Below are positions 3,094-55,372 of a stretch of DNA of 64,000 nt, one piece after another. The stretch is from contig JAQURC010000004.1 of NCBI GenBank assembly GCA_028715785.1, forward strand, positions 21,885 to 85,884. Reading direction: 5' to 3'. Position 1 is the stretch's first letter. Each line of letters starts with the position of its first letter. The position numbers were made by a program, and so were the translations under genes. The stretch comes from Candidatus Omnitrophota bacterium (GTDB lineage Bacteria; Omnitrophota; Gorgyraeia; Gygaellales; Profunditerraquicolaceae). The notes under the pieces were generated by a model. That model was not told where the DNA came from and searched no databases. It saw only the letters and a list, made by a program, of their open reading frames with translations.

Positions 3094-4281
3094 TTATTCC
3101 AGGTAGGTGTAAATCTTGCCCTTATAATTGCGCAGCACATATTTACCCTTGGCCTGGGAAAGGATATAATTTGGCCCCACAGGTATCTTTCCGCCGCCGC
3201 CGGGCCCGTCGATAACATAGGTCGGAACGGCGTAACCTGAAGTATGCCCGCGCAATTTCTCGATAATATTTATCCCCACGGCTACCGGGGTGCGGAAATG
3301 CTGTGTGCCCCTTACCGGGTCGCACTGATAAATATAATATGGCCTTACTCTCATTTGCAGAAGATCATGCATCAGGCGCTTCATAATAAACGGCCGGTCG
3401 TTGATGCCCTTAAGGAGCACCGACTGGCTGCCTAAAGGTATGCCGCTTTCAGAAAGCAAATCGCAGGCATTCTTGCAGCGCTTAGTAATCTCTTTGGGAT
3501 GATTAAAATGGATGCTCATCCAGATAGGAGAATATTTCTTGATCATATTTACCAGATTTTCGGTAACCCGCTGCGGTAAAGTTGCCGGGATACGCGTACC
3601 GATCCTCAACAATTCGACATGCGATATGTCGCGGATCTTGGCAATCAGGGATTCCAATGCCTCATCCTCTAAGGTAAGCGGATCCCCTCCGGAAATCAAT
3701 ACATCCCTGATCTTACGGTTAGCTTTAATATACTCTATGGCCGCATCGAATTTAGTTTCGGGGTTTGTTTCTTTTTCTTCATGATCACCCACGAGGCGCC
3801 GCCGGGTGCAATGCCGGCAATACATCGCGCAATGCTCCGTAGCCAATAAGAGGACCCTGTCCGGATAGCGGTGCACCAGATGCGGCGCCGGAGAATCCCG
3901 GTCTTCAGCGCAAGGATCGGCCATTTCGTGCGGGGAAATCGAGAATTCATCGCCGACCGGTACAGACTGCCTGCGGATGGGGCAATCCGGATCTTCGGTA
4001 TCAATCAGGCTTGCCCAATAAGGAGTAACGGCCATGGCCAACCTTCCCTTGGCTTTATCAATTCCTTTTTCCTCCTGGGGAGTAAGTTTAATGATCTGGG
4101 TCAATTCTTCCTTGGTGCGTATCCTGTGTTTAAGCTGCCAATGCCAATCCTCCCAATCCAACGGGTTGACATCCTTAAAGAGCGGGATCTGCTGATAATC
4201 GCGCCAACGCCTCGGAGGCCGCGGCATAACCGGCGTTTCAATTTGTGTTTTTTGGTTTTCTGAACCTTCGGGGTTACTCAA
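3094..4281 (-). CDS. kamA: Lysine 2,3-aminomutase family radical-SAM enzyme (KamA/EpmB-like).
   Basis: Radical SAM cluster motif CAMYCRHCTRRR, then ISGGDPL and the KamA-family C-terminal region. The ORF carries a roughly 50-aa N-terminal extension. Its start overlaps the stop of the upstream ATP-grasp gene by 4 nt. Confidence 0.85.
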   Translation of the reverse strand: MSNPEGSENQKTQIETPVMPRPPRRWRDYQQIPLFKDVNPLDWEDWHWQLKHRIRTKEELTQIIKLTPQEEKGIDKAKGRLAMAVTPYWASLIDTEDPDCPIRRQSVPVGDEFSISPHEMADPCAEDRDSPAPHLVHRYPDRVLLLATEHCAMYCRHCTRRRLVGDHEEKETNPETKFDAAIEYIKANRKIRDVLISGGDPLTLEDEALESLIAKIRDISHVELLRIGTRIPATLPQRVTENLVNMIKKYSPIWMSIHFNHPKEITKRCKNACDLLSESGIPLGSQSVLLKGINDRPFIMKRLMHDLLQMRVRPYYIYQCDPVRGTQHFRTPVAVGINIIEKLRGHTSGYAVPTYVIDGPGGGGKIPVGPNYILSQAKGKYVLRNYKGKIYTYLE

Positions 4282-5279
4282 TTCAGCCTTTTCCTTTCCG
4301 AGGCACTCATCAGTATTGCCTCAATAAGATCCTCATACCTCATCCCTGCGGCATATGCCATTATAGGAAAATTGGATTCTTTGGGGTCTAATCCCGGTAA
4401 AGGGTTGATCTCCAGGACATACGGCACATTAAATTTATCCAAACGGATGTCGGTCCGGGAAATATCCAAACAGCCTACGGCACGGTGCGTACGTAAAGCC
4501 ACGTCCTTTACCCTTGCTTCTATATCTTTATCCAGCCTTGCCGGGCAATGGAATTCAGGGACCAGCCCCAATTCGCTGTTACCCTGGAACTCTTTCATCT
4601 TCCAGGAATAAAAATACTCCCCGCTTTTTTTACAATTGGAAAAATCGATCTCTAAAATCGGAAGCACGCGGGTTTTTCCATTTTCCAAGATCCCCACGGT
4701 CAACTCTTTGCCTACGATAAATTCCTCAACCAGGGCCTCCTGCCGGTACACGTCTATAGACTCCCTGACCTTCTTGAAAAGGTCTTCTTTATTTTCAACG
4801 ACGTTGGTCTTGTTTATCCCCTTTGCCGATCCTTCGCAATTAGGCTTGACAATCAACGGGAACCGCAGCTGCGCATCCAAAGGTTCATCCCCTTTGACAA
4901 AAAGCTGAAAATTGGGGGTGGGGATATTTTCCGCCTGTAATATTTTCTTGGTCAGCCCCTTATTCAATGCCAGGGCCAAAGAGAAGGTGTCTGAACCGGT
5001 ATAAGGTATATTTAAATAATCCAGCACTGCCGGCACTTCGGATTCGCGGAACCTGCCTTGTTTGCCTTCGGCGATATTAAATACCATATCTACGCGATTT
5101 TTCCTGAAATATGAAAATAAGGCCGGATACTCCACATCGATTGCCTCGACGGAATGGCCTTTGTTTTTAAGGGCCGAAACAACGCAATTGATCGTTTCCT
5201 CCGAATCGCATTCGGAGAAATAATCCGCCGGCTTTTGCGGGTCTTTCTTTTTTAAATTGTAGGTCAGGGTAACTTTCAT
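4278..5279 (-). CDS. D-alanine--D-alanine ligase-family ATP-grasp ligase, paralog 1.
   Basis: Ddl-family hallmarks: FNIAEGKQGRFRESEVPAVLDYLNIPYTGSD, PLIVKPNCEGSAKGI, EALVEEFIVGKELTV and VLEINPLPGL. It is 333 aa long and directly abuts paralog 2. Confidence 0.8.
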   Translation of the reverse strand: MKVTLTYNLKKKDPQKPADYFSECDSEETINCVVSALKNKGHSVEAIDVEYPALFSYFRKNRVDMVFNIAEGKQGRFRESEVPAVLDYLNIPYTGSDTFSLALALNKGLTKKILQAENIPTPNFQLFVKGDEPLDAQLRFPLIVKPNCEGSAKGINKTNVVENKEDLFKKVRESIDVYRQEALVEEFIVGKELTVGILENGKTRVLPILEIDFSNCKKSGEYFYSWKMKEFQGNSELGLVPEFHCPARLDKDIEARVKDVALRTHRAVGCLDISRTDIRLDKFNVPYVLEINPLPGLDPKESNFPIMAYAAGMRYEDLIEAILMSASERKRLN

Positions 5280-53881: not shown

Positions 53882-54426
53882 TGGCCAAAACAGAGAAGAA
53901 TATCATTTTGGGAGTAACTGCCAGTATTGCTATTTATAAAGCCTGCGAGCTGGTCCGGATGCTCAAAAAATGCGGCTTTACCGTCAATGTGGTGATGACC
54001 AAAGAAGCTCAGGAGTTGATTAAGCCGGTTGTTTTTCAAGCCTTGAGCGGCAACCGGGTCTATCGGGGCGGAATATTTGACGAGCAGGATACCTGGGAAA
54101 TTGAGCACATATCCTTGGCGGAAAAAGCGGACCTGATTTTGATTGCTCCGGCAACCGCCAATATCATCGCCAAACTTGCCTGCGGTATCTGCGATGATCT
54201 TTTAAGCTGCACGGTCTGCGCAAGCAGGGCCAGGGTTTTGATCGCTCCGGCGATGAATGAGAATATGTACAAAAATAAGATCACCCAAAGCAATATCGCG
54301 AAATTAAAATCCCGCGGTTATAAATTTATCGGCCCGGTTAGCGGAATGCTTGCTTGCGGGGCGGCGGGGGTGGGTTGTTTGGCGGAGACTGAAGAGATTG
54401 TCAAGCAGGTGAAAAAAATATTATAA
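53881..54426 (+). CDS. coaC: Phosphopantothenoylcysteine decarboxylase flavoprotein (CoaC domain only, not fused to CoaB).
   Basis: IILGVTASIAIYKACELVRMLKK, PAMNENMY and a substrate-recognition clamp with ACG. 181 aa. Confidence 0.75.
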   Translation: MAKTEKNIILGVTASIAIYKACELVRMLKKCGFTVNVVMTKEAQELIKPVVFQALSGNRVYRGGIFDEQDTWEIEHISLAEKADLILIAPATANIIAKLACGICDDLLSCTVCASRARVLIAPAMNENMYKNKITQSNIAKLKSRGYKFIGPVSGMLACGAAGVGCLAETEEIVKQVKKIL

Positions 54427-54430
54427 TTTT

Positions 54431-54505
54431 GGCGACGTAGCCAAGTGGTAAGGCAGTTGTCTGCAAAACAACTATTCAGCGGTCCGATTCCGCTCGTCGC
54501 CTCCA
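54431..54505 (+). tRNA. tRNA-Cys (anticodon GCA), with encoded CCA.
   Basis: GGCGACGTAGCCAAGTGGTAAGGCAGTTGTCTGCAAAACAACTATTCAGCGGTCCGATTCCGCTCGTCGCCTCCA. The anticodon loop is CUGCAAA. Confidence 0.85.
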
Positions 54506-54520
54506 AATTTTTGTTGAAAA

Positions 54521-55195
54521 ATGCCGCAAAAAAGAAAAGAATTAAAAATTGAAGGGGCTAATCTTTGGTATCTGGTAGGGTTGATTACCAGCGACGGATG
54601 TTTATCGAAAGATGGTAGGCATGTAGATATTACATCTAGCGACCATGACTTTCTTAGCAAAATAAAAAACAAATTTAGCTTAACAAATAGAATAGGCATT
54701 AAGAATAAAGAAAAGATCAACTTAGCGTATTATATACAGATATCCAATAAGAATTTTTATGATTTTTTATTATCAATTGGTTTGATTCCAAATAAGTCCT
54801 TAACTTTAGGCAGACTTGATGTTCCCAAAGAATTTTTTAATGATTTTTTAAGGGGTTTAATAGGCGGGGATGGTTCATTGCGTAGTTGGCGACATGCAAC
54901 AAATTTACACATGCAGTGGTCTTTGAGTGTATTTTCAGCATCTGAAGTATTTATCAAATGGCTGCAAACCGTAATAGAAGCATATTTGAGTTGCAGAGGA
55001 AAGATACATTCTGTATTAAGGCCCGATCGTATCAACCCTATTTATACACTAAAATATGGTAAAATGGCTGCGAAAGAGATTACGAAACACTGTTATTATG
55101 AAAATTGTTTTGGTTTAGACAGAAAAATAAAATTAGCACAAGAGTGCCTTGGCTCATATGGGGGTTGGACTCAAAGTAAAACAGTTCTTAATTAA
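54521..55195 (+). CDS. Free-standing double-motif LAGLIDADG homing endonuclease.
   Basis: Motif 1 LVGLITSDGCL and motif 2 FLRGLIGGDGSL are about 95 aa apart. 224 aa. The region is visibly AT-rich relative to its flanks. Confidence 0.8.
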   Translation: MPQKRKELKIEGANLWYLVGLITSDGCLSKDGRHVDITSSDHDFLSKIKNKFSLTNRIGIKNKEKINLAYYIQISNKNFYDFLLSIGLIPNKSLTLGRLDVPKEFFNDFLRGLIGGDGSLRSWRHATNLHMQWSLSVFSASEVFIKWLQTVIEAYLSCRGKIHSVLRPDRINPIYTLKYGKMAAKEITKHCYYENCFGLDRKIKLAQECLGSYGGWTQSKTVLN

Positions 55196-55206
55196 AATTT
55201 AATATT

Positions 55207-55289
55207 GGGCAGGTGTTGGAATGGCAGACAATGGAGACTTAAAATCTCCCGTTCGCAAGAGCATGAGGGTTCGACTCCCTCCCTGCCCA
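55207..55289 (+). tRNA. tRNA-Leu (anticodon TAA), type II with a long variable arm, CCA not encoded.
   Basis: GGGCAGGTGTTGGAATGGCAGACAATGGAGACTTAAAATCTCC-CGTTCGCAAGAGCAT-GAGGGTTCGACTCCCTCCCTGCCCA. The anticodon loop is CUUAAAA. The gene is continuous, with no intron. Confidence 0.8.
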
Positions 55290-55298
55290 CTAAAATCA

Positions 55299-55372
55299 GG
55301 GCTCATAGCTCAGTTGGTTAGAGCGTTGCGTTGACATCGCAAAGGTCAGTGGTTCAAGTCCACTTGGGCCCA
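55299..55372 (+). tRNA. tRNA-Val (anticodon GAC), CCA not encoded.
   Basis: GGGCTCATAGCTCAGTTGGTTAGAGCGTTGCGTTGACATCGCAAAGGTCAGTGGTTCAAGTCCACTTGGGCCCA. The anticodon loop is UUGACAU. Confidence 0.85.

What the first reader, a model, noticed from the sequence alone, without database searches (positions are those of the whole stretch)
54521..55195. Free-standing double-motif LAGLIDADG homing endonuclease gene in a tRNA-Cys / tRNA-Leu / tRNA-Val cluster.
Seen in sequence: a 224-aa ORF with two LAGLIDADG motifs, LVGLITSDG and LRGLIGGDGSL, at canonical spacing. It is markedly AT-rich relative to its flanks and begins 16 nt after tRNA-Cys and ends 12 nt before tRNA-Leu(UAA). Established knowledge: bacterial LAGLIDADG enzymes are almost always encoded inside group I introns or inteins, and tRNA-Leu(UAA) is the classic host of an ancient group I intron. 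Here tRNA-Leu is uninterrupted, so the endonuclease gene is intergenic. Inference: this is a recently acquired selfish element, a remnant of an intron-encoded HEG that relocated, or a domesticated nuclease.
Basis: partly seen in the sequence, partly recalled or inferred. Interest (0 to 1): 0.65.

Follow-up and report, generated by a model that had tools for sequence, protein, structure and literature searches.

The report
Homing endonuclease that replaces tRNA-Leu
This is a real, intact selfish nuclease gene that moves between Omnitrophota genomes, appears to insert into the tRNA-Leu(UAA) gene, and brings along a recoded replacement tRNA-Leu; related nucleases lie next to tRNA genes in at least two other phyla.

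Summary
Window 54521-55195 (+) is an intact 224-aa double-motif LAGLIDADG gene between tRNA-Cys and tRNA-Leu(UAA). It is AT-rich, lies in no intron or intein, and keeps both catalytic Asp.

It is a mobile selfish element, not a domesticated gene. I sampled 63 informative Omnitrophota species genomes through the neighbouring yicC gene. Only 11 carry the gene, always at this site. 31 have tRNA-Cys followed directly by tRNA-Leu, and others hold decayed copies. Endonuclease (HEG) divergence does not track host divergence, and the window's copy is far closer to L011's than the flanking genes are.

The new point is that the target seems to be tRNA-Leu(UAA) itself.
- HEG-free genomes share one near-invariant tRNA-Leu.
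- All 16 occupied loci of the first set carry a different, structurally compensated allele (neighbour-sampled loci: Fisher p = 5e-8).
- In about 15 occupied loci a 5' fragment of a resident tRNA-Leu lies at the ORF start, and in some its D-loop ATG is the start codon.
- All 76 metagenome copies not cut by a contig end sit 0-30 nt upstream of tRNA-Leu(UAA), whatever lies upstream.

A 29%-identical lineage sits 5' of tRNA-Cys. A 38%-identical family in Patescibacteria and Chloroflexi sits 5' of tRNA-Leu(CAG). Cleavage specificity is inferred, not shown.

The parts
54398..54427 (+). Promoter-like site (TTGTCA, 18 nt, TATAAT) just upstream of tRNA-Cys. It is a candidate promoter of the tRNA-Cys / endonuclease / tRNA-Leu / tRNA-Val unit.
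   Evidence: 11 of 12 consensus positions. The number of promoter-like sites in the region equals the chance expectation, so this is only a lead. No + strand terminator-like site lies between tRNA-Cys and thrS.
54431..54505 (+). tRNA-Cys(GCA), the upstream neighbour. Its sequence matches the allele common in endonuclease-free relatives, apart from a T-to-C change in the T-loop (GGTCCGATTCC against GGTTCAATTCC or GGTTCGAATCC).
   Evidence: The upstream neighbour is not part of the constant unit: 13 of 76 metagenome copies have tRNA-Val, tRNA-Thr or tRNA-Gly there instead.
54506..54520 (+). 15-nt A/T-rich leader (AATTTTTGTTGAAAA) with no Shine-Dalgarno-like motif. It may be a decayed remnant of the resident tRNA-Leu 5' end.
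   Evidence: In L085, L005, L092, L110, L122 and L158 the same position holds GGGCAAGTGGTGGA or a related tRNA-Leu 5' end directly before the ATG. That the window's leader is a remnant is inference.
54521..55195 (+). Free-standing single-chain LAGLIDADG homing endonuclease gene, 224 aa.
   Evidence: dN/dS is 0.17-0.28 against the closest copies. The product is 100% identical to a GenBank protein annotated 'LAGLIDADG family homing endonuclease [Candidatus Omnitrophica bacterium]'.
54572..54598 (+). LAGLIDADG motif 1, LVGLITSDG. The catalytic Asp25 codon is 54593-54595.
   Evidence: D25 is invariant in 120/120 homologues and aligns with the DG of I-Tsp061I motif 1.
54848..54874 (+). LAGLIDADG motif 2, LRGLIGGDG. 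The catalytic Asp117 codon is 54869-54871. Gly115 (54863-54865) is Asp in 119/120 homologues.
55196..55206 (+). 11-nt spacer between the stop codon and tRNA-Leu. This tight linkage is the constant feature of the family.
   Evidence: the median distance is 9 nt, with a range of -3 to 27 nt over 76 metagenome copies.
55207..55290 (+). tRNA-Leu(UAA), endonuclease-linked replacement allele (GGGCAGGTGTTGGAATGGCAGACAATGGAGA...). Against the native allele of related genomes it differs at the acceptor pair 6-67, D-stem pair 10-25, a D-loop base, position 26 and the anticodon stem. The changes are compensated, so the cloverleaf is kept.
   Evidence: (Rfam tRNA, 50.5 bits).
55299..55372 (+). tRNA-Val(GAC), the downstream neighbour. 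It shows no allele split between occupied and empty loci.

Best explanation
The ORF is an active or recently active free-standing LAGLIDADG homing endonuclease gene (HEG) that spreads horizontally among Omnitrophota. Its homing site is the tRNA-Leu(UAA) gene. The proposed steps are as follows.

(1) The enzyme recognises about 20 bp of the native tRNA-Leu(UAA) gene, around the D-stem 3' strand and anticodon-stem 5' strand (about tRNA nt 20-32), and cuts it.

(2) The break is repaired from a HEG-bearing copy. This copies in the HEG together with the complete tRNA-Leu(UAA) allele that lies 6-12 nt downstream of it.

(3) That allele carries compensated substitutions across the presumed site. It still makes a working tRNA but is not cut, so the invaded genome keeps an essential tRNA and becomes immune.

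(4) The displaced 5' piece of the native gene is left upstream, where its D-loop ATG can serve as the start codon, and later decays. In the window it is gone or unrecognisable.

(5) The HEG has no evident ribosome-binding site or terminator. It is probably transcribed with the tRNA operon, and its message is released by tRNA processing.

(6) After fixation the HEG decays and is deleted, leaving the immune tRNA-Leu behind.

Shown here: identity and fold, patchy site-specific presence, horizontal movement, purifying selection, linkage to a non-native tRNA-Leu allele, tRNA-Leu 5' fragments at the ORF start, and decayed copies. Inferred: the exact cleavage site, resistance of the linked allele, and the route of expression.
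For: Identity. Pfam LAGLIDADG_3 E = 3.8e-10. A profile hits I-Tsp061I at 6e-11 and an I-DmoI chimera at 6e-4. The model has pLDDT 88 and its top fold matches are I-Tsp061I, I-AniI, I-OnuI and I-DmoI. D25 and D117 are invariant in 120/120 homologues.

Patchy presence at one site. Eighty Omnitrophota species genomes were fetched through the neighbour YicC, not through the HEG. Of 63 that cover the site, 11 are occupied, 31 have tRNA-Cys followed by tRNA-Leu after 7-47 nt, and 21 have gaps of 61-2220 nt.

Horizontal movement.
- HEG identity against mean host-protein identity gives Spearman 0.10 (p = 0.29). Host genes among themselves give 0.41-0.80.
- The L011 and L012 hosts are 92% identical but their HEGs only 68%. 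The window and L008 hosts are 84% identical, their HEGs 61%. L003's host proteins are only 32% identical to the window's, yet its HEG is 60%.
- dS between the window and L011 is 0.25 for the HEG against 0.93-2.47 for flanking genes.
- Window against L011, nucleotide identity is 92-98% over the first ~420 nt of the HEG and 67-88% in the flanks.
- HEG GC3 stays at 0.26-0.36 while host GC3 ranges from 0.29 to 0.61.

Selection for function. dN/dS is 0.09-0.28.

tRNA-Leu as target.
- The 24-mer GGGCAAGTGGTGGAATGGCATACA starts tRNA-Leu in 41 HEG-free loci.
- All 16 occupied loci of the first set have another allele. For the neighbour-sampled loci, Fisher p = 5e-8.
- The core TAC[AT]CGA is present in 44/52 HEG-free alleles, 0/16 HEG-linked alleles of the first set and 4/76 of the metagenome set.
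- tRNA-Cys and tRNA-Val show no such split.
- In L085 the native 24-mer lies at 4740-4763 and its ATG at 4754 starts the HEG. Similar fragments occur in L005, L054, L092, L103, L110, L122/L123, L127, L129, L130, L132, L133, L145, L158 and L166. They end at tRNA nt ~15-31.
- 76/76 metagenome copies not cut by a contig end sit 0-30 nt 5' of tRNA-Leu(UAA). The upstream neighbour varies: Cys 59, Val 10, Thr 2, Gly 1.

Decay and loss.
- L074 has an internal deletion and a frameshift.
- The 32-nt spacer of L034 keeps AGCGACGGATGT...AAAGATGG, the coding sequence of motif 1, next to a non-native tRNA-Leu.
- L014 lacks the HEG but shares L012's variant tRNA-Leu at 97%.

Generality.
- A 29%-identical LAGLIDADG lineage sits directly 5' of tRNA-Cys in L070, L121, L145 and L152.
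- A 38%-identical family (1374 proteins at E <= 1e-20; named members are Patescibacteria and Chloroflexi) sits directly 5' of tRNA-Leu(CAG) in 3 of 3 loci with mostly different flanking genes.
Against: - No cleavage assay exists. The target, the cut position and the resistance of the linked allele are all inferred from comparative anatomy.
- Four of 76 metagenome copies are linked to a tRNA-Leu that keeps the TAC[AT]CGA core (L133, L148, L152, L156). L156 has a premature stop near its N-terminus. The other three need different specificities or some other explanation.
- Some upstream fragments (L129, L166) resemble alleles that are HEG-linked elsewhere. A single target sequence therefore cannot explain everything, and several specificities must be assumed.
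- The metagenome set is not matched for host, so part of the allele diversity there may be ordinary between-clade tRNA variation.
- The window's copy has Gly at position 115 where 119/120 relatives have Asp, and it has no recognisable tRNA-Leu fragment upstream. This particular copy could be inactive.
- I could not check whether HEG-bearing genomes keep another tRNA-Leu(UAA) elsewhere.
- No vector for transfer between cells was found: no close relative in viral contigs, phages or plasmids.
Confidence: 0.72

Rival explanations
1. It is a mobile homing endonuclease gene, but tRNA-Leu is not its target. The enzyme cuts somewhere else nearby, such as the spacer or another gene. The non-native tRNA-Leu merely hitch-hikes in the co-conversion tract, as flanking markers do with phage T4 seg and mob genes.
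For: - Free-standing endonucleases of T4 often cut hundreds of bp from their own gene and drag flanking DNA along (PMC2988022).
- HEG clades and tRNA-Leu allele types are only partly congruent. The window, L011 and L016 have 85-88% identical HEGs but three different tRNA-Leu types.
- Four HEG-linked alleles keep the native core.
Against: - The only constant neighbour is tRNA-Leu(UAA), 0-30 nt downstream in 76/76 copies, while the upstream gene varies.
- About 15 loci hold a truncated resident tRNA-Leu ending at nt ~15-31 right at the HEG start, which places the insertion inside that gene.
- tRNA-Cys and tRNA-Val, which are equally close, show no allele split.
- Spacers in empty sites are short and variable, so they make poor targets.
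- Two sister lineages repeat the same layout at tRNA-Cys and tRNA-Leu(CAG).
Confidence: 0.15
2. It is a domesticated LAGLIDADG protein with a host function, for example a DNA- or RNA-binding factor of the tRNA operon. It would be inherited vertically since the origin of the phylum and lost repeatedly.
For: - The first six homologue loci examined all showed the same synteny: parA-parB-ndk-yicC-gmk-rpoZ-(flavoprotein)-tRNA-Cys-ORF-tRNA-Leu.
- Purifying selection is strong and many residues are invariant, including the N-terminal R5, K6, L8 and I10.
Against: - Unbiased sampling through the neighbour gene gives 11 occupied of 63 informative genomes. Empty sites occur in the closest relatives of the window's organism.
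- HEG and host divergence are uncorrelated, and the HEG is younger than its flanks.
- Both catalytic Asp are invariant. To my knowledge the known domesticated member WhiA has lost them.
- Decayed copies exist.
- Composition is independent of the host.
Confidence: 0.05
3. It is the remnant of an intron-encoded endonuclease. A group I or archaeal-type intron once split tRNA-Leu, the ribozyme or splice structure was lost, and a second tRNA-Leu took over.
For: - The 5' tRNA-Leu fragment followed by an ORF looks like a 5' exon with an intron ORF fused to it.
- The nearest solved relatives, I-Tsp061I and I-DmoI, are encoded in archaeal introns.
- tRNA genes of bacteria do host group I introns, a few of which carry endonuclease genes (PMC13011429).
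Against: - No group I or group II intron model matches the window at E <= 10, or six related loci at gathering threshold.
- The downstream tRNA-Leu is complete. In L085, for example, its acceptor 3' strand could not pair with the upstream fragment (GGGCAAG against ...CCCCGGC).
- Most copies have no fragment at all.
- Fragment ends lie at nt ~15-31, in the D-arm and anticodon stem, not at the anticodon-loop positions used by bacterial tRNA group I introns.
Confidence: 0.03

Closest known systems
Phage T4 SegB, a free-standing homing endonuclease in the T4 tRNA gene cluster (PMC2330249)
   Same: It is free-standing and sits between tRNA genes. Its recognition site includes a conserved tRNA motif, and it spreads its own gene together with neighbouring tRNA genes into relatives that lack it (abstract read).
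   Different: SegB is a GIY-YIG enzyme of a phage. It recognises the T-psi-C stem-loop motif and cuts in a tRNA intergenic region (Table 1). The element here is a LAGLIDADG enzyme in bacterial chromosomes. It appears to insert inside the target tRNA gene and to supply one complete substitute copy of that same tRNA.
Intronless homing by the T4 seg and mob genes SegF, SegG and MobE (review PMC2988022)
   Same: An endonuclease gene lies outside any intron or intein, in a gap between conserved genes. It is often a promoter-less cassette read from a host promoter, it is inherited by double-strand-break repair, and flanking DNA is co-converted.
   Different: The T4 enzymes cut hundreds to thousands of bp from their own gene. 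Here the fragments place the insertion within about 30 nt of the start of the target gene, as for intron-encoded enzymes, and the target gene is duplicated and replaced rather than only marked by polymorphisms.
I-Tsp061I (PDB 2dch) and I-DmoI, monomeric LAGLIDADG endonucleases encoded in archaeal rRNA introns
   Same: These are the closest solved relatives by sequence profile (6e-11, 6e-4) and by fold (E = 5e-12; TM 0.64-0.69). They are single-chain, two-motif enzymes of about 200 aa with an acidic residue at the end of each motif.
   Different: Identity is only about 20%. They are intron-encoded in archaeal rRNA genes, whereas the gene here is bacterial, free-standing and linked to a tRNA gene.
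Group I intron of cyanobacterial and plastid tRNA-Leu(UAA)
   Same: The host gene is the same, tRNA-Leu(UAA).
   Different: That intron sits at position 34/35 of the anticodon loop, and most bacterial tRNA introns carry no endonuclease gene (PMC13011429). Here there is no ribozyme, and the insertion maps to the D-arm and anticodon stem.
Mobile endonuclease ORF in the Allomyces macrogynus mitochondrial atp6 gene (Paquin, Laforest and Lang 1994; recalled from memory, not checked here)
   Same: As I recall it, the mobile unit is an endonuclease ORF plus a foreign copy of part of the target gene. That copy replaces the resident part, and a displaced fragment of the resident gene is left beside the insertion.
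   Different: That case concerns a eukaryotic organelle and a protein-coding target. The carried part is the 3' end of the gene rather than a whole tRNA gene.
WhiA (DUF199), a domesticated LAGLIDADG-fold regulator
   Same: It has the LAGLIDADG fold. There is a weak Pfam LAGLIDADG_WhiA hit (E = 0.007, below cut-off), and PDB 3hyi is among the fold matches.
   Different: To my knowledge WhiA lacks the catalytic acidic residues, carries a C-terminal HTH domain and is inherited vertically as a conserved gene. The gene here keeps both Asp, has no HTH domain and is patchily distributed.

Membership tests
LAGLIDADG homing endonucleases (single-chain, two-motif) | Two LAGLIDADG motifs, each ending in an acidic residue followed by Gly, about 90-110 residues apart | tested here: met
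   LVGLITSD25G and LRGLIGGD117G. Pfam LAGLIDADG_3 scores 40.3 bits against a cut-off of 22.5. Both DG pairs align with those of I-Tsp061I. D25 and D117 are invariant in 120/120 homologues.
LAGLIDADG homing endonucleases (single-chain, two-motif) | Two alpha-beta-beta-alpha-beta-beta-alpha domains packed through the motif helices | tested here: met
   The AlphaFold2 model has pLDDT 88 and pTM 0.87, with helix and strand order H-E-E-H-E-E-H twice. Foldseek against the PDB gives 97 matches at E <= 0.001, led by I-Tsp061I, I-AniI, I-OnuI and I-DmoI. This is a prediction, not a solved structure.
LAGLIDADG homing endonucleases (single-chain, two-motif) | Site-specific cleavage of a long (about 20 bp) DNA target, leaving 4-nt 3' overhangs | not testable with these tools
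   This needs purified protein and DNA substrates.
Homing (mobile) endonuclease genes in general | Presence/absence polymorphism at one fixed site among related genomes, with horizontal spread | tested here: met
   11 occupied, 31 empty and 21 intermediate among 63 neighbour-sampled species genomes. HEG and host distances are uncorrelated. HEG dS is 0.25 against 0.93-2.47 for the flanks. The identity profiles are mosaic.
Homing (mobile) endonuclease genes in general | Invasion, decay and loss cycle, seen as degenerate copies and scars | tested here: met
   L074 is deleted and frameshifted. L156 has a premature stop. L034 keeps a 32-nt scar with motif-1 coding sequence. L014 has lost the HEG but kept the linked tRNA-Leu allele.
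Free-standing endonuclease genes (intronless homing) | Not inside a self-splicing intron or an intein | tested here: met
   No intron family in the window at E <= 10 or in six related loci. The ORF has its own start and stop, and Pfam reports no intein splicing domain at E <= 1.
Free-standing endonuclease genes (intronless homing) | Target in a conserved neighbouring gene, with the carrier genome protected by sequence differences in that target | tested here: inconclusive
   The comparative data are strongly suggestive. The native tRNA-Leu core is present in 44/52 HEG-free alleles against 0/16 and 4/76 HEG-linked alleles. Native 5' fragments lie at the ORF start. Cleavage and resistance were not measured.
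Group I intron-encoded endonucleases | ORF embedded in a P1-P9 ribozyme that interrupts the host gene | tested here: not met
   Searches found no Intron_gpI match. tRNA-Leu is complete in one piece.
Domesticated LAGLIDADG proteins (WhiA-like) | Vertical inheritance in (nearly) all members of the lineage, usually with loss of catalytic residues | tested here: not met
   Occupancy is 11/63. The catalytic Asp residues are invariant. The phylogeny is incongruent with the host's.

The most novel reading that the evidence does not exclude
A large, undescribed clade of free-standing LAGLIDADG endonuclease genes, spanning Omnitrophota, Patescibacteria and Chloroflexi, specialises in homing into tRNA genes: tRNA-Leu(UAA), tRNA-Leu(CAG) and tRNA-Cys(GCA). 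Each member would destroy the resident tRNA gene and install a recoded, cleavage-immune copy carried just downstream. On this reading the elements drive horizontal replacement and rapid compensatory evolution of tRNA genes: 65 distinct 5' alleles among 92 endonuclease-linked tRNA-Leu genes, against 18 among 52 endonuclease-free ones. This would be an arms race between nuclease specificity and tRNA gene sequence, and in some copies the start codon is taken from the D-loop of the broken tRNA gene.
Probability: 0.5. Interest if true: 0.72.

Novelty: new variant of a known kind. Interest (0 to 1): 0.6.

Why it matters
Free-standing homing endonucleases are known mainly from phages, and LAGLIDADG enzymes mainly from introns and inteins. 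Here a chromosomal bacterial LAGLIDADG gene uses an essential tRNA gene as its landing site. It avoids killing its host by bringing a substitute tRNA gene, not by relying on splicing.

If cleavage tests confirm this, three things follow.
- It would give a third way, besides introns and inteins, for a homing endonuclease to invade an essential gene harmlessly.
- It would show that selfish nucleases can drive replacement and compensated sequence change in tRNA genes across species. This matters for anyone using tRNA genes as vertical markers or interpreting odd tRNA alleles in metagenome-assembled genomes.
- It would supply hundreds of natural enzyme variants paired with candidate target and immune sequences, which is useful raw material for studying and engineering meganuclease specificity.

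The practical point for annotation is that the gene is already labelled 'LAGLIDADG family homing endonuclease' in GenBank. The gene call is not new; the biology of the locus is.

Tried and rejected
1. Domestication. The first six homologue loci all showed the same synteny and about 60% identity, which looked like a phylum-wide vertical gene. I rejected this after sampling genomes through the neighbouring yicC gene instead of the endonuclease, which showed mostly empty sites.

2. Intron origin. Rfam at E <= 10 over the window region and at gathering threshold on six related loci gave only tRNAs. Rfam did not list the tRNA-Leu(CAG) genes of L170 and L172 that ARAGORN calls. Their sequences form a normal class II cloverleaf by eye, so I accept ARAGORN.

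3. Integrase-type element at a tRNA gene. No recombinase ORF lies in or beside the ~0.7-kb insert.

4. Phage or plasmid vector. Viral contigs gave one 27% hit. Phage genomes gave only <= 27% identity, mostly Staphylococcus phages. Plasmids gave nothing.

5. NCBIfam gave no meaningful hit.

6. Literature. I found no paper linking LAGLIDADG genes with Omnitrophota, or free-standing LAGLIDADG genes with tRNA-Leu. The one paper holding both 'LAGLIDADG' and 'Omnitrophota' was not opened. The library is not exhaustive.

7. tRNA origin of the conserved 5' coding region. In L085, ATGGCATACA-GAAGGA...TTAAAA follows the native tRNA from the D-loop towards the anticodon loop with two small indels. The sequence is A/T-rich and I ran no statistical test, so I leave this as an untested idea.

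8. One yicC comparison (L008 against L012, dN 2.6) comes from a poor alignment segment and was ignored.

9. I did not examine the other intermediate gaps (61-540 nt) beside native-type tRNA-Leu beyond an HMM search, which found no endonuclease remnant.
Full report
**1. The observation**

Window 54521-55195 (+) is an ATG-initiated ORF of 224 codons. tRNA-Cys(GCA) ends at 54505 and tRNA-Leu(UAA) starts at 55207, with tRNA-Val(GAC) following at 55299. The protein has LVGLITSDG (residues 18-26) and LRGLIGGDG (110-118).

The identification rests on these results:
- Pfam LAGLIDADG_3 matches at E = 3.8e-10, above its curated cut-off.
- A profile of 62 family members hits the archaeal intron endonuclease I-Tsp061I at 6e-11 and an I-DmoI chimera at 6e-4, with both DG motifs aligned.
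- The AlphaFold model (pLDDT 88, pTM 0.87) has the duplicated alpha-beta-beta-alpha-beta-beta-alpha layout, and its best PDB matches are LAGLIDADG enzymes.
- The ORF has 33.5% GC (GC3 0.29) against 45.8% (GC3 0.54) in the neighbouring genes.
- An Rfam scan at E <= 10 finds only the three tRNAs.

The product is identical to a GenBank protein already named 'LAGLIDADG family homing endonuclease [Candidatus Omnitrophica bacterium]', so the organism is an Omnitrophota member.

**2. First impression and why it was wrong**

A protein search returned 337 relatives. The best 120 are all 57-100% identical, 218-291 aa (most 219-226 aa), and those that carry a source's name are labelled Omnitrophota or Omnitrophica. 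Six of their loci showed the same gene order as the window: parA-parB-ndk-yicC-gmk-rpoZ-(flavoprotein)-tRNA-Cys-ORF-tRNA-Leu(UAA)-tRNA-Val.

That pattern suggests a conserved, vertically inherited and possibly domesticated gene. However, loci found through the gene itself cannot show where it is absent. I therefore fetched 80 species genomes through the neighbouring YicC protein and scored the site in each.

**3. Patchy presence at one site**

Of 63 neighbour-sampled genomes that cover both tRNAs:
- 11 carry the ORF.
- 31 have tRNA-Cys followed by tRNA-Leu after only 7-47 nt.
- 21 have gaps of 61-2220 nt.

Empty sites occur in the closest relatives of the window's organism (L009, L010, L014, L015; YicC 78-83% identical).

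Decayed copies exist:
- L074 lacks residues 17-101 and is frameshifted.
- L156 has a stop after eight codons.
- The 32-nt 'empty' spacer of L034 still reads AGCGACGGATGT...AAAGATGG, the coding sequence of motif 1 (compare window 54590-54613).

**4. Horizontal movement under selection**

Endonuclease identity does not follow host identity. Spearman correlation is 0.10 (p = 0.29), against 0.41-0.80 between pairs of host genes.

| Pair | Host proteins | Endonuclease |
|---|---|---|
| L011 / L012 | 92% | 68% |
| window / L008 | 84% | 61% |
| window / L003 | 32% | 60% |

Further evidence points the same way:
- Synonymous divergence between the window and L011 copies is 0.25, against 0.93-2.47 for the flanking genes.
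- Their nucleotide identity is 92-98% over the first ~420 nt of the ORF but 67-88% in the flanks.
- GC3 of the ORF stays at 0.26-0.36 while host GC3 ranges from 0.29 to 0.61.
- dN/dS is 0.09-0.28, and D25 and D117 are invariant in 120/120 sequences.

Selection therefore maintains a working nuclease. Together this is the signature of a homing endonuclease gene that keeps moving. It is not what a domesticated gene would show.

**5. The tRNA-Leu gene is part of the element**

Alignment of the adjacent tRNA-Leu(UAA) genes shows a sharp split.

Endonuclease-free genomes share one allele. Its first 27 nt, GGGCAAGTGGTGGAATGGCATACACGA, are nearly invariant even between hosts whose YicC proteins are only about 50-83% identical to the window's. 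The exact 24-mer starts tRNA-Leu in 41 such loci.

All 16 occupied loci of the first set carry a different allele. For the neighbour-sampled loci, Fisher p = 5e-8.

| tRNA-Leu alleles | With core TAC[AT]CGA |
|---|---|
| Endonuclease-free | 44/52 |
| Endonuclease-linked, first set | 0/16 |
| Endonuclease-linked, metagenome set | 4/76 |

These counts are. tRNA-Cys and tRNA-Val show no such split.

The window's allele differs from the native one in five places: acceptor pair 6-67 (A-T to G-C), D-stem pair 10-25 (G-C to T-A), a D-loop base, position 26, and the anticodon stem (ACAGA/TCTGT to GGAGA/TCTCC). The changes are compensated, so the cloverleaf is kept. Rfam scores it as a tRNA at 50.5 bits.

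Seven of the eight endonuclease-free loci without the native core are explained or flagged:
- L014, L034, L044 and L070 are short sites. L034 holds an endonuclease scar and L014 shares L012's linked allele at 97%. For L044 and L070, past occupancy is only inferred from the allele.
- L074 holds the decayed copy.
- L063 and L075 hold other inserted genes.

The eighth, L086, has a minor variant of the native allele.

**6. The insertion lies inside a tRNA-Leu gene**

In L085 the order is tRNA-Cys, a 10-nt spacer like those of empty sites, then GGGCAAGTGGTGGAATGGCATACA. These are the first 24 nt of the native tRNA-Leu, and they run straight into the ORF. The D-loop ATG is the start codon.

The same fusion occurs in L005, L092, L110, L122/L123 and L158, and in L166 with a TTG start. 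In L054, L103, L127, L129, L130, L132, L133 and L145 a longer fragment, reaching tRNA nt ~22-31, is followed by a short A/T linker and the ATG.

In all these loci a complete, different tRNA-Leu(UAA) follows the ORF. The element is therefore best described as [endonuclease gene + whole replacement tRNA-Leu] inserted into the resident tRNA-Leu. The break maps to the D-stem 3' strand and anticodon-stem 5' strand.

In 80 further copies fetched from metagenomes, all 76 not cut by a contig end sit 0-30 nt upstream of tRNA-Leu(UAA). The upstream neighbour is tRNA-Cys in 59, tRNA-Val in 10, tRNA-Thr in 2 and tRNA-Gly in 1. The constant partner is tRNA-Leu.

**7. Proposed mechanism**

Shown: sections 1-6.

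Inferred:
- The enzyme cuts the native tRNA-Leu(UAA) gene near nt 20-32.
- Repair from a carrier copies in the endonuclease gene and its linked allele.
- That allele is immune because of its compensated substitutions.
- The left-over 5' fragment decays. In the window only 15 A/T-rich nt remain.

Expression is probably from the tRNA operon. A promoter-like site with 11/12 consensus matches lies at 54398-54427, and no + strand terminator-like site lies between tRNA-Cys and thrS. The promoter count in the region equals the chance expectation. The leader has no Shine-Dalgarno-like motif.

The window's copy is intact, but it has Gly115 where 119/120 relatives have Asp. Its activity is therefore an open question.

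**8. Points that do not fit neatly**

- Three intact copies (L133, L148, L152) are linked to alleles that keep the native core.
- Some upstream fragments (L129, L166) are of types that are endonuclease-linked elsewhere.
- Endonuclease clades and linked tRNA-Leu types are only partly congruent.

These facts can be explained by several specificities and repeated replacement. The 65 distinct 5' alleles among 92 linked genes, against 18 among 52 free ones, are consistent with this. That explanation is an inference, and the metagenome set is not matched for host clade.

**9. The same layout elsewhere**

A second LAGLIDADG lineage, 29% identical and also Pfam LAGLIDADG_3, lies directly 5' of tRNA-Cys(GCA) in L070, L121, L145 and L152. 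It runs into the tRNA gene in two of these. In L145 a 10-nt tRNA-Cys 5' fragment precedes it.

A sister family, represented by P0165, is 38% identical to the window protein. It has 1374 proteins at E <= 1e-20, and its named members come from Patescibacteria and Chloroflexi. It lies directly 5' of tRNA-Leu(CAG) in all three loci examined, with mostly different flanking genes.

The exhaustive representative search counts 5194 related clusters at E <= 1e-3 and 44 at E <= 1e-30. Several distant representatives have N-termini that read like translated tRNA sequence. I did not follow this up.

**10. Comparison with what is known**

By mechanism the element is a free-standing homing endonuclease gene, spreading by what has been called intronless homing (PMC2988022).

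The nearest described case is T4 SegB. SegB is a GIY-YIG enzyme that sits in a tRNA cluster, recognises a tRNA-derived motif and spreads neighbouring tRNA genes (PMC2330249). The element here differs in four ways:
- the enzyme family;
- its place in bacterial chromosomes;
- insertion inside the target gene;
- carriage of one whole substitute copy of that gene.

By descent it belongs with the monomeric I-DmoI and I-Tsp061I type.

A recent survey of bacterial tRNA introns lists intron-borne endonucleases, and the passages I read do not describe this arrangement; the term 'free-standing' does not occur in that paper (PMC13011429). My other literature searches found nothing on it either.

**11. 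Verdict**

The 'selfish element' reading is supported, and the 'domesticated' and 'intron remnant' readings are not. The unexpected result is that tRNA-Leu is both the target and the cargo.

This is a new variant of a known kind. Interest is 0.6. The central step, cleavage of the native allele and immunity of the linked one, can be tested directly with synthetic substrates.

Noticed in passing
L070 8196-8966; L121 1649-2425; L145 973-1692; L152 1291-2010: A second LAGLIDADG lineage (256 aa in L070, 29% identical to the window protein, Pfam LAGLIDADG_3) lies directly 5' of tRNA-Cys(GCA). In L070 and L121 the reading frame runs into the tRNA gene. In L145 a 10-nt tRNA-Cys 5' fragment (GGCGCGGTAG) precedes the ATG. 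L145 and L152 carry both the tRNA-Cys-linked and the tRNA-Leu-linked endonuclease genes.
   Followed up: partly
L170 2501-3154, L171 2501-3133, L172 2501-3133 (tRNA-Leu(CAG) at 3145, 3150 and 3135): A sister family (P0165, 38% identical; 1374 proteins at E <= 1e-20; named members from Patescibacteria and Chloroflexi) lies directly 5' of tRNA-Leu(CAG) in 3 of 3 loci with mostly different flanking genes. Rfam at gathering threshold did not list the tRNA-Leu genes of L170 and L172, although ARAGORN did.
   Followed up: partly
L063 4242-5026; L075 8989-11191: In two genomes the gap between tRNA-Cys and a non-native tRNA-Leu holds other cargo instead of the endonuclease gene. Both have a 72-73-aa ORF followed by a DUF6036/DUF2204 nucleotidyltransferase-like ORF, which looks like a toxin-antitoxin pair. 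L075 also has an AAA_14/DUF4143 ATPase. The site may be a general insertion hotspot.
   Followed up: partly
L003 4001-4711 (tRNA-Leu at 4675-4761): In this distant host the endonuclease ORF has lost its usual stop and reads 37 nt into tRNA-Leu. It ends at the TAA that is the tRNA's anticodon.
   Followed up: no
window 54863-54865 (Gly115): The sixth residue of motif 2 is Gly in the window's protein but Asp in 119 of 120 homologues (LRGLIDGDG). This may mark the window's copy as weakened or inactive.
   Followed up: no
L071 8307-9128: This endonuclease copy has an in-frame insertion of about 53 codons between profile positions 185 and 186. What the insertion is was not examined.
   Followed up: no
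L005 3762-4000; L001 3843-4000: Inserts of 158-239 nt lie between tRNA-Cys and the endonuclease gene. The one in L005 contains inverted repeats (CCACAACTTACG ... CGTAAGTTGTTGG), as a small mobile repeat element would.
   Followed up: no
L085 4754-4790, compared with the native tRNA-Leu (for example L010 8339-8365): The first ~30 nt of the L085 ORF (ATGGCATACA-GAAGGA....TTAAAA) follow the native tRNA-Leu from the D-loop towards the anticodon loop with two small indels. The conserved N-terminal coding region (M-x-x-x-R-K-E-L-K) might therefore descend from tRNA sequence. The sequence is A/T-rich and no statistical test was done.
   Followed up: no
P0145, P0148, P0195, P0256: Several distant family representatives have N-terminal extensions that read like translated tRNA sequence (for example GSIPARAS and MAKLADAS). 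This suggests that their genes also abut tRNA genes.
   Followed up: no
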